Below, one piece after another: positions 18,001 to 21,000 of a stretch of 38,682 nucleotides of DNA. The DNA lies in the sequence record OV696608. One strand, written 5' to 3'. Position numbers: made by a program. Source of the DNA: Escherichia phage Gally. Position 1 is the first letter of the stretch, and every line of letters begins with the position of its first letter.

Positions 18001-21000
18001 TTACCGGAAACTGGGCTTACGGTGCGATAGCAGGTTGTACGTTCTTCATTGCGCGTGAACACACCCAGGCAGAATATCGCTGGATAGAAAAGTTTGGGAA
18101 AGGGAAACGTATCAACATGCCATGGTGTGGAGGTTTTGATCCACGCGTGTGGGATGTGGGAAGTCTGTTGGATTTTTCTTTCCCAATTATCGGATGCTTA
18201 TTGGTATGGATTCTTGCATCGTAGCGAACACATAATTACCGATGAAACAAAACTGAGACACACAAAGCTTTGCACTGGATTGCCAGGCGTTGTGCTATTC
18301 GATAGTTAAGGTGTATCACTCCACCTTTTCATCAAGCCAGTCCGCCCACCACTGCATCATTTCTCTGCGCTTATCGAGATACTGAGCATGGTTGTAAATT
18401 CAGCAAACGACGTAATGTGTTTGACAAAAAATTAGCGCAAGAGGACAAAAAATCACCTTGCGCTAATGCTCTGTCTCAGGTCACTAATACCATCTAAGTG
18501 GTTGATTCATAGTGACTGGATATGTTGTGTTTTGTCGCGTTTTGCAGTCTATTATTTAATCATTAAGTAATCTAATGCTATGATTTTTAAATTATTTATG
18601 TGATTTTGTCATCCTTTAGGTGAATAAGTTGTATATTTAAAATCTCTTTTACTATCAATGAATTAATATAAACAGGTCATTATTAGTCAAAATAAAATCA
18701 TTTGTCGATTTCAATTTTGTCCCATTCACGCCCACGACTGTCCCTATACCGCGCCGCCATTGAATCTGATTTATGCCCGAGAAGACGTTGAGCAAACTTA
18801 TCGCCAATCTGATTCCGGTATAGCCTCGCCGACAGGCTACGCAGTTCATGGAATGTTGGCGGGTCTCCATCAAATGAGAGTCCAGATACATTTCTCGCCT
18901 TTGTAAAATACTTAGATACTGTTTTCGGGGAAAGCGGTTCGTGATGCGTTGATGCAATTATTGTTTCACTGCCGCTGGCCTCCCTGCATTTCTGTAGTGT
19001 ATCAGCCAATGAGATATTGAGCGCGTCAATCGTTAGCATCAGCGGAATGGCGAGCTTAGTACCTGTTTTACCCTGCTCAATGTGAAGATGGTTGTCGTTT
19101 ATGTCTGACCATTTCATTCTACATAAATCGCCTACTCTCTGCCCTGTAACGACAGCCAAATCCATTGCCAGCCTCAGCCAGATTGGTAGCGGTTCGGCTG
19201 CATGGTAAATCGCGACATATTCATTAGCTGTCAGCCTTGAGCGCCTTACTTCTGACTTTGCTGTGCGGGTTGCTGTTACCGGATTCGTTTCCACATGCCC
19301 CTCGGCTATTGCCTCACGAAAAACGTCAACAAGGGTTGACCTGATTAATTTTGCGGAAGCTGCTTTACCTTCTGCTACGTAGGTGTTTAGCATTGCTGCC
19401 ACTTCTTTCGTTGATATGTCAGTGAGCGGTTTGTCCGGCAATTTTCTTCGGATTACCCTGATTTTGCTGGCGTAGTCGAGTAGAGTTTTCGGTCTGATAC
19501 CCCTCTCGCTGAGGATTGTTTCATATCGGTCAAGCCACGCATGAAGAGTGATTGCGTCAGCGCCTTTAATTCTGTCTATCAGTGACTCACGCCTGTTCTC
19601 GGATAGCAACTCAATATTGGCCTGAATAGCCTCTGAAACTGCTATCCTTCTGTCTCTGCCTAATCCAAACTCTTTACCCGTCCTTGGGTCCCTGTAGCAG
19701 TAATATCCATTGTTTCTTATATAAAGGTTAGGGGGTAAATCCCGGCGCTCATGACTTCTCCTTCTTCCCATTTCTGATCCTCTTCAAAAGGCTACCTGTT
19801 ACTGGTCGATTTAAGTCAACCTTTACCGCTGATTCGTGGAACAGATACTCTCTTCCATCCTTAACCGGTGGTGGGAATATCCTGCATTCGCGCACCCATC
19901 GACGAACTGTTTCAAGGCTTCTTGGGCGTCGCTGGCGTGCGTTCCACTCCTGAAGTGTCAAGTACATCGCAAAGTCTCCGCAATTACACGCAAGAAAAGC
20001 CGCATTGATGCGGCAATGGTAGGTCTGGATATCTTGAGAAATGAACGGGCCTCATCGAGTGTGAGGCTGTGGTTAGTCCTTGCGTAGCTCGCTAATTCTT
20101 CTGTAAGTCTCTGGTGCTTTGTTTCCGTGTATCTTCATTTCAGACTTCAACAGAGCAACGAGAGAATCCCATTCGTTGAGGATGCCTTTGAATGCCGGAA
20201 CGCGCTTTGCAACCTTGTCGAATGAATCCCTGATTTCTGGAATCTGCTCGACAAGCGCAACGCATCGTCGGAAATCGGCTGCGTCATGTGGAGCACCGAA
20301 GCTATGACCATAGATATTCTTTTTCAGTCCACATGCGATTGAGGCAAGAGTTGCGCTACTGATGCCAACATCGCCAGTCGATTGCCATTTCAAAACCTTC
20401 ATAGCCAAATCTGACATTTCTTGTCTCCAATAAAAAAACCGCCATCAGGCGGCTTGGTGTTCTTTCAGTTCTTCAATTCGAATATTGGTTACGTCTGCAT
20501 GTGCTATCTGCGCCCACAGCATCCAGTGGTCATAGCAGTCGTTGATGTTCTCTGCTTCGATAACTCTGTTGAATGGTTCTCCATTCCATTCACCTGTGAC
20601 TCGGAAGTGCATTTATCATCTCCATAAAAAACCGCCGTAGCGAGTTCAGATAAAAGAAATCCCCGCGAGTGCGAGGAATGTTATTGTCTTTTCTTCGTGC
20701 ATTTGTCGCACTTTCGGCACCATCCAGATAGGCACATCCGTCCGCAATTAACACATATAGGCCACATCATTTTTCCTCTTTTGGTTTATGAATCTGAATG
20801 GTCATGCCGCTTTGAGTGGTGACTACAATGACAGAACCAGGCTGAAGACTGTTAAGATTGAATGCTTCGTAAAACGAATCCAATGCCAGTGCTTTTTTAT
20901 TCTTTCGGTTCCACCAACGCCATCCCCTGCTACAGGCCATGTTGACAATCCACTGCCCACTCCTGTAAGCCATATAAAACCAGATGAGCAAAACCTGAAG

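What the first reader, a model, noticed from the sequence alone, without database searches (positions are those of the whole stretch)
20420..20780. Unannotated small genes and a duplicated terminator-RBS cassette upstream of xis
Two minus-strand ORFs below the 60-aa cutoff have proper RBSs and translational coupling: a 55-aa protein (20445-20612) and a 29-aa protein with six cysteines (20681-20770, MMWPICVNCGRMCLSGWCRKCDKCTKKRQ, possible zinc ribbon). The motif TCTCCA(A)TAAAAAAACCGCC occurs twice (20421-20445 and 20619-20636), each time forming on the minus strand a T-run plus GGAGA RBS plus start codon, the first with a clear hairpin. The plus-strand track ORF 20421-20627 is probably spurious.
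Basis: seen in the sequence. Interest (0 to 1): 0.5.

Follow-up and report, generated by a model that had tools for sequence, protein, structure and literature searches.

The report
Tiny conserved cysteine-rich phage gene
Between known terminators and a known small gene of a lambda-like prophage lies a real, almost never annotated 28-29-residue cysteine-rich protein gene, conserved across unrelated enterobacterial phages; the rest of the finding is already-described lambda biology.

Summary
The window is prophage Gally of E. coli LF82. The 55-aa ORF (20445-20612, minus) is lambda orf55 and is annotated in RefSeq. The two motif copies are the U-tract and Shine-Dalgarno ends of two terminators already predicted in lambda: t4, the second half of the tL4 region, and t5, which sits where lambda's t'I is expected. 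They look alike here partly because this lineage has a 4-nt deletion. The shared TTTTAT(T)GGAGA also works as a mosaic joint: related phages attach at least five different genes to it, and some lack orf55 altogether. The worthwhile part is the Cys-rich mini-ORF (20681-20767/20770). It is a real coding gene. Diverged homologues of 24-25 aa (MWPICxxCGRMCxxxWCxxCD) occur in at least six genomic contexts, including virulent siphophages and a large Citrobacter phage. Synonymous sites are saturated while the protein is kept (pN/pS about 0.2), a Shine-Dalgarno is always present, and the start overlaps the upstream stop codon. Five cysteines are conserved, four of them as CxxC-x8-CxxC, a mini zinc-ribbon pattern. 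It matches no Pfam, PHROG or NCBIfam family and is unannotated in sampled RefSeq E. coli genomes. HK106 gp30 is the same protein. Its function is unknown.

The parts
20681..20767 (-). Mini-ORF coding a 28-aa protein, MWPICVNCGRMCLSGWCRKCDKCTKKRQ. An alternative start at 20770 gives 29 aa. The stop TAA is at 20683-20681. The motif is CxxC-x3-C-x4-CxxC.
   Evidence: Searches show the ORF. tblastn finds diverged homologues with E down to 1e-5. Complete ORFs occur in at least six genomic contexts. pS is 1.02 against pN 0.21 on codons that the search pattern did not fix. The other two frames are not conserved.
20774..20778 (-). Shine-Dalgarno GAGGA of the mini-ORF, lying inside the end of the DUF4752 coding sequence. 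It is 6 nt from the second ATG and 3 nt from the first.
   Evidence: Read from the sequence. A Shine-Dalgarno-like purine run precedes the ATG in every other genomic context.
20767..20769 (-). Stop codon TGA of the DUF4752 gene (20767-21048). It overlaps the mini-ORF starts as ATGA and as TGATG.
20650..20677 (-). tL4 terminator (lambda t3): hairpin UCCUCGC-ACUC-GCGGGGA followed by UUUCUUUUAU, starting 3 nt after the mini-ORF stop.
   Evidence: Terminator scan and fold at -11.3 kcal/mol, z -4.7. It aligns with the features annotated as tL4 in 434 (M60848) and HK022 (X51962). Table 4 of PMC4195576 lists it.
20626..20647 (-). Second hairpin of the tL4 region (lambda t4): C(U)CGC-UACG-GCGG followed by a U-run. 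A 4-nt deletion weakens it in this window.
   Evidence: Fold at -6.9 kcal/mol. Alignments A1 and A4. The lambda version is listed at -9.2 kcal/mol in PMC4195576. L131 carries a diverged version that still pairs.
20619..20636 (-). Motif copy 2: GGCGGTTTTTTATGGAGA, made of the 3' arm of t4, its U-tract and the ORF55 Shine-Dalgarno.
20445..20612 (-). orf55 homologue (55 aa), a known lambda exo-xis-region gene of unknown function with a predicted fold like T7 Gp2.
   Evidence: Annotated in RefSeq. phrog_676 matches at E 3.7e-40. The frame is intact in 36 of 38 DNA variants. The AF2 model has pLDDT 88.5 and its best PDB match is T7 Gp2. PMC8614690 reports the same.
20429..20455 (-). Terminator after orf55, the homologue of lambda t5; in lambda this hairpin sits directly upstream of pI, where t'I is expected. 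The hairpin AAGCCGCC-UGAU-GGCGGUUU has the orf55 stop codon in its loop and is followed by a U-run.
20424..20443 (-). Motif copy 1: GGCGGTTTTTTTATTGGAGA, made of the terminator 3' arm, its U-tract and the ORF114 Shine-Dalgarno.
20073..20417 (-). ORF114 (434 ORF114, HK022p30, phrog_1229). It forms a cassette inserted between the orf55 terminator and pI-xis.
19990..20014 (-). 434-type t'I terminator, GCCGCA-UCAA-UGCGGC followed by UUUUCUUGCG. It runs straight into the pI/CII-box sequence CTTGCGTGTAATTGCGG upstream of xis.
20421..20627 (+). 68-aa plus-strand ORF, antisense to orf55 and most likely spurious.
   Evidence: TTG start with no Shine-Dalgarno. The periodicity of variable sites fits the orf55 frame. 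No record examined annotates it.

Best explanation
The stretch is the distal end of the early-left (pL) operon of prophage Gally of E. coli LF82. It is built from three small units, each a Shine-Dalgarno, an ORF and an intrinsic terminator.

1. DUF4752 plus a 28/29-aa mini-gene, ending at the two-hairpin tL4 region.
2. orf55, ending at the homologue of lambda t5.
3. ORF114, ending at the 434-type t'I. After that come pI, xis and int.

The mini-gene is a real protein-coding gene. Its start codon overlaps the DUF4752 stop codon, so it is probably translated by re-initiation or coupling, most likely from the second ATG. The product is a microprotein whose four cysteines in CxxC-x8-CxxC most likely hold one zinc ion as a mini zinc ribbon, with a fifth conserved cysteine, two conserved tryptophans and a basic tail. 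By inference it is an accessory early protein that binds a host or phage macromolecule.

The two motif copies are the U-tract and Shine-Dalgarno ends of two different conserved terminators. By analogy with phage lambda, these terminators would stop transcripts not modified by the N antiterminator before they reach xis and int. Their shared TTTTAT(T)GGAGA sequence also serves as a recombination joint at which lambdoid phages swap, gain or lose these small units.

Shown here: coding-level conservation of the mini-gene, the hairpins, homology to annotated terminators, and the alternative joints. Inferred only: zinc binding, actual translation, terminator activity in this phage, and any function.
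For: Identity of the region. The window matches LF82 at 100%, with int next to torS. Gally lies between torS and torT (PMC9928086).

Mini-gene:
- tblastn of the peptide against 2.3 Gb of phage DNA finds homologues of 64-76% identity, with E from 1e-5 to 8e-3. They lie in Deseoctovirus C1, Skatevirus KFS-SE2, ST1UNAM, ZCEC08, CF-SP1 and Citrobacter Tr1, unannotated in most of these records.
- Each of the loci examined holds a complete 24-25-codon ORF with a Shine-Dalgarno, and its ATG abuts or overlaps the upstream stop codon.
- Degenerate-pattern scans add further contexts: after a TraR/DksA zinc-finger gene and before ninX; after a membrane-protein gene and before a MazG-like gene; and in another lambdoid phage ahead of a diverged tL4-like double hairpin.
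- On codons that the pattern did not fix, pS is 1.02 and pN 0.21. Mean pairwise identity is 0.83 in the ORF frame against 0.53-0.54 in the other two, and 12 of 13 diverged sequences have stop codons in the +2 frame.
- A pattern that left the N-terminus free still recovered MWPIC in 38 of 39 hits.
- Invariant residues are M, W, P, I, C6, C9, G, R, M, C13, W17, C18, C21 and D22.
- The best PDB sequence match, though not significant, is the zinc ribbon of RNA polymerase III subunit RPC2, VCDKCGLMGYSGWCTTC, with identical Cys spacing.
- The single-sequence AF2 model has a core pLDDT of about 91. Its Foldseek hits, all non-significant, are almost all to zinc-binding modules or zinc-ribbon-containing complexes.

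Terminators. They were found by the scan and by folding. They align with the tL4 and t'I features annotated in 434 and HK022 and with lambda. Table 4 of PMC4195576 predicts lambda t3, t4 and t5 at the homologous places.

Joint function. After the t4 hairpin the same TTTTATGGAGA leads into orf55, into a 98-aa Cys protein gene, directly into ORF114 (12 locus entries with orf55 absent), or into two other genes. After t5 there are at least five alternative continuations.
Against: - There is no direct evidence of translation, of metal binding, or of terminator activity in this phage.
- Within the near-identical lambdoid copies, the few polymorphisms are mostly non-synonymous: P4L, G10R, K20R, K20M, C21R, C21Y, D22E, K27Q, K27N and one C9stop, against two synonymous changes. 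Recent variation therefore shows no clear purifying signal. Some copies may be decaying, or some changes may be sequencing errors.
- All homology searches select for protein similarity, which biases pN/pS downward. I reduced this bias by scoring only unconstrained codons, but did not remove it.
- No Pfam, PHROG or NCBIfam model matches, so 'zinc ribbon' rests on the Cys pattern, a non-significant PDB match and a single-sequence model that carried 5 non-native N-terminal residues.
- In this window a 4-nt deletion leaves the t4 hairpin weak and its free U-tract short, so it may no longer terminate.
Confidence: 0.75

Rival explanations
1. The mini-ORF is a regulatory reading frame and the peptide itself does not matter. 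Ribosomes that re-initiate after DUF4752 and stop 3 nt before the tL4 hairpin would cover its 5' arm. That would tune termination or mRNA stability at tL4.
For: The stop codon lies 3 nt before the tL4 hairpin in the window, and about 5 nt before a terminator in the C1, KFS-SE2 and L131 contexts. The orf55 stop codon likewise sits in the loop of its own terminator.
Against: The amino-acid sequence is kept while synonymous sites are saturated. In the TraR/ninX, Tr1 and L105 contexts the ORF is followed by another gene with no terminator, yet it keeps the same sequence. A purely positional ORF would not conserve 14 residues. A regulatory side-effect on top of a protein function is not excluded.
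Confidence: 0.1
2. The mini-ORF is not expressed. It is either the remnant of a longer zinc-finger gene or a chance ORF conserved only because the DNA is young or serves as an RNA or DNA element.
For: RefSeq leaves it unannotated in every sampled E. coli genome (183 of 5426 genomes carry it). Two annotators chose other frames over the same DNA. Recent polymorphisms include Cys losses and a nonsense mutation. Recombinant extended versions exist in L032 and L043.
Against: The ORF keeps its start and its stop at 24-29 codons in at least six unrelated contexts, at 64-79% protein identity and with 15-23 nucleotide differences in 66. The frames chosen by other annotators are not conserved in the diverged homologues: the +2 frame has stop codons in 12 of 13, and the +1 frame drops to 0.53 mean identity. 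A Shine-Dalgarno is present in each context. tblastn found no longer protein carrying the motif.
Confidence: 0.08
3. The two motif copies come from a true tandem duplication of a terminator-plus-ribosome-binding-site cassette in this phage, and are not two old, independent terminators.
For: There is an exact 11-mer and an 18-20-nt gapped match, never seen in shuffles. The spacing between Shine-Dalgarno and ATG is the same, 6 nt.
Against: The hairpins ahead of the shared part differ: CGC-UACG-GCG against GCCGCC-UGAU-GGCGG. Both elements are present at the same places in lambda, 434 and HK022. Nearly all relatives read GGGTTTTGTTTTATGGAGA at copy 2, so the close match here was produced by a lineage-specific 4-nt deletion. 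The similarity that remains is what a G+C-rich stem, a U-tract and a Shine-Dalgarno would give, or it may reflect an ancient common origin or repeated recombination at the joint.
Confidence: 0.07

Closest known systems
Escherichia phage HK106 gp30 (HK106_030, YP_007151700.1, UniProt K7P872), hypothetical protein of 29 aa
   Same: The same protein. The HK106 sequence differs from the window by one residue (K27Q). The window's exact 29-aa sequence is also in the protein collection, under third-party metagenome records. The gene sits in the same position after DUF4752.
   Different: It is only a bare 'hypothetical protein' call. No family, function or conservation analysis was found for it. RefSeq genomes of E. 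coli and the virulent phages leave the gene unannotated.
Lambda orf55 (lambdap35; 434 ORF55; phrog_676)
   Same: The window's 55-aa ORF is this gene. It is nearly identical to lambda's at the DNA level, lies in the same place between tL4 and the next terminator, and its model shows the same Gp2-like beta-beta-alpha-beta fold.
   Different: In lambda it is followed directly by pI and xis. Here, as in 434 and HK022, ORF114 lies in between.
Lambda, 434 and HK022 terminators tL4 and t'I (GenBank M60848, X51962, OL657226; predicted t3, t4, t5 of lambda in PMC4195576)
   Same: Homologous sequences, the same order, and the same hairpins and U-tracts.
   Different: In the window the t4 hairpin carries a 4-nt deletion that shortens its stem and U-tract. 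The hairpin next to pI is the 434 type, and the lambda-type one now precedes ORF114.
C4 zinc ribbons with CxxC-x8-CxxC spacing, for example the clamp zinc ribbon of RNA polymerase III subunit RPC2 (5fj8_B), and small phage zinc proteins of the exo-xis region (lambda Orf73/TraR-like, Ea8.5)
   Same: The Cys spacing is the same and the local sequence is similar (C.kCG.M..s.WC..C). Like Orf73 and Ea8.5 it is a small Cys-rich early accessory protein. In one group of loci it lies directly after a TraR/DksA zinc-finger gene.
   Different: The match is not significant (E 0.35). The mini-protein is a free-standing 24-29-aa chain with a fifth conserved Cys. It does not match the TraR/DksA Pfam model or any other.
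Conserved boundary ('linker') sequences at gene junctions of mosaic lambdoid phages (from my own knowledge of the literature on HK97, HK022 and HK620 genome comparisons; not checked with the tools)
   Same: A short conserved sequence at a gene boundary is shared by different neighbouring modules, and the novel joints fall inside it.
   Different: Here the boundary sequence is itself functional, being a terminator U-tract plus a Shine-Dalgarno. Convergence and recombination therefore cannot be separated.

Membership tests
Lambda orf55 family (phrog_676) | Full-length sequence match to the family profile, about 55 aa | tested here: met
   phrog_676 matches at E 3.7e-40 over residues 1-55 of 55. 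The DNA aligns with lambda lambdap35 and 434 ORF55.
Lambda orf55 family (phrog_676) | Position at the xis-proximal end of the exo-xis region, downstream of tL4 | tested here: met
   Alignment A1 and the annotated records.
T7 Gp2-like RNA polymerase inhibitors (as a functional class for orf55) | Gp2 fold (beta-beta-alpha-beta) | tested here: inconclusive
   The AF2 model has pLDDT 88.5. The top Foldseek PDB hit is 4lk0_M (Gp2) at E 0.04, with TM 0.62-0.69 and about 22% identity over the Gp2 chains matched. RNAP epsilon subunit YkzG and p56 score nearly as well.
T7 Gp2-like RNA polymerase inhibitors (as a functional class for orf55) | Binding to the RNA polymerase beta' jaw and inhibition of transcription | not testable with these tools
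   Only a speculative docking model exists in the literature (PMC8614690).
Intrinsic (Rho-independent) terminators tL4 and t'I of lambdoid phages | G+C-rich hairpin immediately followed by a U-tract on the transcribed strand | tested here: met
   Three minus-strand sites come from the scan, at 20677-20660, 20455-20436 and 20014-19999 (6 terminator-like sites on both strands against 1.3 expected). Their fold energies are -11.3, -13.0 and -10.3 kcal/mol. The t4 hairpin folds at -6.9 kcal/mol.
Intrinsic (Rho-independent) terminators tL4 and t'I of lambdoid phages | Homology to elements annotated as tL4 or t'I in reference phages | tested here: met
   They align with the 434 t-L4 and t'-I features and the HK022 tL4 feature.
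Intrinsic (Rho-independent) terminators tL4 and t'I of lambdoid phages | Measured termination, relieved by N antitermination | not testable with these tools
   This needs in vitro transcription or Term-seq.
C4 zinc-ribbon / zinc-knuckle proteins (for the mini-protein) | Two CxxC knuckles at ribbon-compatible spacing, conserved across homologues | tested here: met
   C6-x2-C9 and C18-x2-C21 are invariant in 14 diverged sequences.
C4 zinc-ribbon / zinc-knuckle proteins (for the mini-protein) | Significant match to a curated zinc-ribbon family or to a solved zinc-ribbon structure | tested here: not met
   Pfam and NCBIfam give nothing, and PHROGs only E of 0.3 or worse. The PDB profile search gives E 0.35 at best. 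All Foldseek hits have E above 4.
C4 zinc-ribbon / zinc-knuckle proteins (for the mini-protein) | Stoichiometric zinc binding | not testable with these tools
   This needs metal analysis of the peptide.
DUF1244 (the label given to the identical peptide in third-party metagenome records) | Match to Pfam DUF1244 | tested here: not met
   A Pfam scan at E up to 1 returned no family for the peptide. The label is seen.
TraR/DksA C4 zinc finger (PF01258) | Match to PF01258 | tested here: not met
   The mini-protein has no hit. Its upstream neighbour in some loci does match, at E 2.9e-10.

The most novel reading that the evidence does not exclude
The MWPICxxCGRMCxxxWCxxCD microprotein is a previously unrecognised, horizontally mobile family of phage zinc-ribbon effectors. 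It would be carried by temperate and virulent enterobacterial phages alike and would dock onto a conserved host machine, such as RNA polymerase, the ribosome or a defence protein, early in infection. It would rank among the shortest conserved phage effectors.
Probability: 0.2. Interest if true: 0.6.

Novelty: new member of a known kind. Interest (0 to 1): 0.33.

Why it matters
Most of the finding restates known lambda biology: orf55, the tL4 region, t'I, and mosaic joints at gene boundaries. The part with value is a conserved 24-29-aa Cys-rich gene. It is present in 183 of 5426 complete E. coli genomes and in several unrelated phage lineages, standard annotation misses it or calls it in the wrong frame, and it belongs to no curated family. 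It is a clean, testable example of the small-protein blind spot in phage annotation. It is also a candidate early accessory factor in Gally, the most active prophage of the Crohn's-associated strain LF82. Adding the family to annotation resources would correct hundreds of records, and its small size makes synthesis and metal-binding or partner-binding tests cheap.

Tried and rejected
I therefore modelled a 34-aa in-frame window translation with 5 non-native N-terminal residues.
- The search for related loci in genome contigs with DUF4752 gave a single locus, which was not informative.
- The Rfam scan of 19700-21200 gave only a sub-threshold isrK hit on the orf55 terminator. I treat it as similarity between terminators, not as an sRNA.
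- The 'protein NinF' label under one E. coli match is an opposite-strand gene at a deletion joint and is not related to the mini-ORF.
- The DUF1244 label on third-party records was not reproduced.
- The 480-aa TolC-like 'representative' of the peptide's cluster is a clustering artefact.
- Literature searches for tL4 and for the peptide sequence found nothing relevant. PMID 6305007 and the lambda ribosome-profiling paper are not held in the library.
- The frames chosen by other annotators were rejected. The Dewey 33-aa TTG frame has stop codons in 12 of 13 diverged homologues. The mEp213_028 80-aa GTG frame shows only 0.53 identity and runs through both tL4 hairpins into orf55.
- Covariation support for the tL4 hairpins is thin, with one compensatory pair in five sequences, so I rely on homology to annotated terminators instead.
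Full report
**Where the window comes from.** The stretch 20400-20800 is 100% identical to E. coli LF82 (NC_011993, 1000729-1001129). In that record the integrase gene lies next to torS. That identifies the prophage as Gally, which sits between torS and torT and is the most active and most inducible prophage of LF82 (PMC9928086). Genes run on the minus strand in this order:
- DUF551 gene, 21045-21881
- DUF4752 gene, 20767-21048
- the mini-ORF
- orf55, 20445-20612
- ORF114, 20073-20417
- xis, 19749-19967
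- int, 18698-19771

. This is the distal part of the exo-xis region of the early-left operon.

**Check of the observation.** Both ORFs are present as described.
- The motif GGCGGTTTTTT(N)AT(N)GGAGA occurs on the minus strand twice, at 20424-20443 and 20619-20636. It gave zero matches in 100 shuffles.
- The terminator scan finds minus-strand hairpin and U-tract sites at 20677-20660, 20455-20436 and 20014-19999. In total it finds six terminator-like sites on both strands against 1.3 expected.
- Their fold energies are -11.3, -13.0 and -10.3 kcal/mol, with z-scores from -3.1 to -4.7. The hairpin ahead of motif copy 2 folds at only -6.9 kcal/mol.

**What was already known.**
- *orf55.* The 55-aa ORF is lambda orf55. 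It is annotated in the LF82 RefSeq record (WP_000545737.1), in lambda (lambdap35), in 434 (ORF55) and in mEp213, and it matches phrog_676 over its full length at E 3.7e-40. Its frame is intact in 36 of 38 DNA variants. Variable sites fall 13/5/17 by codon position, which also argues against the antisense plus-strand ORF 20421-20627. A published AlphaFold model resembles T7 Gp2, and a role as a modulator of RNA polymerase has been proposed as speculation (PMC8614690). I reproduced this: pLDDT 88.5, and the best PDB match is Gp2 (4lk0_M, E 0.04, TM 0.62-0.69), followed by the RNA polymerase epsilon subunit YkzG and p56.
- *tL4.* The hairpin at 20677-20660 aligns with the features annotated as tL4 in 434 (M60848) and HK022 (X51962).
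- *Predicted lambda terminators.* Table 4 of PMC4195576 lists three predicted lambda terminators that align with 20677-20660 (t3), with the hairpin ahead of motif copy 2 (t4) and with the hairpin after orf55 (t5).
- *t'I and ORF114.* In lambda the t5 hairpin is followed at once by CTTGCGTGTAATTGCGG, the pI/CII-box region, so it occupies the place expected for lambda's t'I. In this window, as in 434 and HK022, ORF114 with its own terminator lies between the two. That terminator (20014-19999) is the 434-type t'I and is followed by the same CTTGCG sequence.

**The 'duplicated cassette'.** The two copies are the 3' arm, U-tract and Shine-Dalgarno of two different terminators, and the stems ahead of them are unrelated. 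Lambda, 434, HK022, mEp213 and Dewey, and nearly all IMG/VR relatives, read GGCG(G/A)GTTTTGTTTTATGGAGA at copy 2. Only the LF82 lineage has a 4-nt deletion, and that deletion creates the exact 11-mer shared with copy 1. It also shortens the t4 stem and its free U-tract.

The shared sequence has a further role.
- After the t4 hairpin, the same TTTTATGGAGA leads into orf55, into a 98-aa CxxC..CxxC protein gene, directly into ORF114 with orf55 missing (12 locus entries, some contigs fetched twice), or into two other genes.
- After t5 there are at least five alternative continuations.
- The orf55-less joints are of t4 type to the left of GGAGA and of ORF114 type to the right. The crossover therefore lies inside the motif.

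The region is thus a chain of units, each a Shine-Dalgarno, an ORF and a terminator, and the boundaries of these units are hot spots of mosaicism. Whether the two elements share an ancient origin or have converged cannot be decided from these data.

**The mini-ORF.**
- *Annotation status.* It is not annotated in the LF82 record. In a sample of 40 of the 183 complete E. coli genomes that carry it, none annotates it; the one 'NinF' label is an opposite-strand gene at a deletion joint. Two phage annotators chose other frames over the same DNA. HK106 does annotate it, as gp30, and third-party metagenome records hold the identical peptide under a DUF1244 label that my Pfam scan does not reproduce.
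- *Homologues.* Among close lambdoid relatives the DNA is too similar to be informative. The few polymorphisms there are mostly non-synonymous and include Cys losses and one nonsense change. tblastn of the peptide against the phage collection finds diverged homologues, 64-76% identical with E from 1e-5 to 8e-3, in phages of other genera: Deseoctovirus C1, Skatevirus KFS-SE2, ST1UNAM, ZCEC08, CF-SP1 and the 154-kb Citrobacter phage Tr1.
- *ORF structure.* Each of the loci examined holds a complete ORF of 24-25 codons that begins MWPIC, is preceded by a Shine-Dalgarno, and has its ATG abutting or overlapping the upstream stop codon. Degenerate DNA patterns scanned over IMG/VR and metagenomes add further contexts: after a TraR/DksA zinc-finger gene and before ninX; after a membrane-protein gene and before a MazG-like gene; and in another lambdoid phage ahead of a diverged tL4-like double hairpin.
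- *Selection.* On the codons that the search pattern left free, the synonymous difference is saturated (pS 1.02) while pN is 0.21. Mean pairwise identity is 0.83 in this frame against 0.53-0.54 in the other two, and the +2 frame has stop codons in 12 of 13 sequences. A pattern that left the N-terminus free still recovered MWPIC in 38 of 39 hits.
- *Start codon.* All diverged homologues have a single Met, and the GAGGA lies 6 nt from the second ATG, the same spacing as for orf55 and ORF114. The product is therefore probably the 28-aa form starting at 20767, whose A is shared with the DUF4752 TGA.
- *An optional gene.* About 49 of 80 DUF4752 loci carry the mini-ORF, and the rest have a different gene after DUF4752.

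**What the mini-protein is likely to be.**
- Fourteen positions are invariant: M, W, P, I, C6, C9, G10, R11, M12, C13, W17, C18, C21 and D22.
- C6-x2-C9 and C18-x2-C21 form a CxxC-x8-CxxC pattern typical of a minimal zinc ribbon.
- A profile search of PDB sequences gives nothing significant. Its best hit, at E 0.35, is the clamp zinc ribbon of RNA polymerase III subunit RPC2 (VCDKCGLMGYSGWCTTC), which has the same spacing.
- The single-sequence AF2 model has a core pLDDT of about 91 with short strands. Its Foldseek hits all have E above 4, and almost all are to zinc-binding modules or zinc-ribbon-containing complexes.
- No Pfam, PHROG or NCBIfam family matches, and the sequence does not occur in the searchable literature.

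My best account is a zinc-binding microprotein made early from the pL transcript by coupling to DUF4752, acting as an accessory factor that binds some macromolecule. Zinc binding, translation and function are all inferences.

**Rival readings.**
- *A purely regulatory ORF.* The idea is that a terminating ribosome covers the tL4 stem. The 3-nt gap between the stop codon and the hairpin is suggestive. However, the peptide sequence is conserved in contexts with no terminator, so at most this is a side-effect.
- *A non-expressed remnant.* This is contradicted by the conserved start, stop, Shine-Dalgarno and protein-level selection in six contexts.
- *A recent duplication of the terminator cassette.* This is contradicted by the different stems and by the derived 4-nt deletion.

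**Verdict.** orf55, the terminators and the joint motif are ordinary, already-described lambdoid features. The mini-ORF is a real, conserved, nearly always missed microprotein gene with a zinc-ribbon-like pattern and unknown function. It is a new member of a known kind, of modest interest, and easy to test.

Noticed in passing
window 20626-20659 with 20613-20618 (minus strand): RNAalifold pairs UUAUCU at the end of the tL4 U-tract with AGAUGA, the spacer between the orf55 Shine-Dalgarno and its AUG. This encloses the t4 hairpin and would partly mask orf55 translation initiation. The pairing is invariant in 4 of 5 sequences, so covariation cannot test it.
   Followed up: partly
window 20432-20492 (-): A sub-threshold Rfam hit to isrK, a prophage-encoded Hfq-binding sRNA of Salmonella (18.3 bits against a gathering score of 50, E 0.35), falls on the orf55 3' end and its terminator. 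It is probably only similarity between terminators.
   Followed up: no
L001 1-704 (LF82 torS) and L001 3951-4514 (window about 21850-22401): RefSeq marks torS, next to the prophage integrase gene, as frameshifted. It also marks the ea22-like gene of the prophage as a partial pseudogene lacking its N-terminus.
   Followed up: no
L032 (about 1057-1160) and L043 (about 1481-1600): Two IMG/VR variants carry recombinant or extended mini-ORFs. In one, homology breaks right after the WC codons and the ORF ends after 32 aa in unrelated sequence. In the other, the stop codon TAA has become TCA and the ORF reads on to 38 aa.
   Followed up: partly
L015 and about 30 other locus entries, directly after the t4 hairpin: An alternative cassette uses the same TTTTATGGAGATGAT joint. 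It encodes a 98-aa protein, MACSTFNPL...CSLCGG...CLNC..., with two CxxC pairs and no Pfam match, and is followed by orf55 with its own Shine-Dalgarno. Its C-terminus (ISKGEIPGVRIE) resembles the C-terminus of the gene that precedes the mini-ORF in phage C1 (AAGKIPGVKLED).
   Followed up: partly
L176, L202 and HK106, after the tL4 hairpin: In some relatives the first tL4 U-tract joins directly to ATGGGGATAATATG and a long ORF. HK106 annotates a queuine tRNA-ribosyltransferase in this region. The t4 hairpin is absent at this joint, so the first terminator's U-tract is a mosaic joint as well.
   Followed up: no
L170 1501-1768 (E. coli 06_3235): This is a prophage remnant in which the mini-ORF region abuts ninF-ninG-ninH on the opposite strand. 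Evidently a large internal deletion or inversion has joined the exo-xis region to the nin region.
   Followed up: no
protein collection, cluster of P0001-P0006: The 29-aa peptide is clustered with 473-480-aa TolC-like outer-membrane proteins, one of which is the cluster 'representative'. This is a clustering artefact for very short sequences and could hide microproteins from searches that use representatives.
   Followed up: yes
L108 (reverse-complement coordinates 1798-1944): In one of the loci of TraR / mini-ORF / ninX type, the TraR-like zinc-finger gene upstream of the mini-ORF is cut short to 48 aa, while the mini-ORF stays intact.
   Followed up: no
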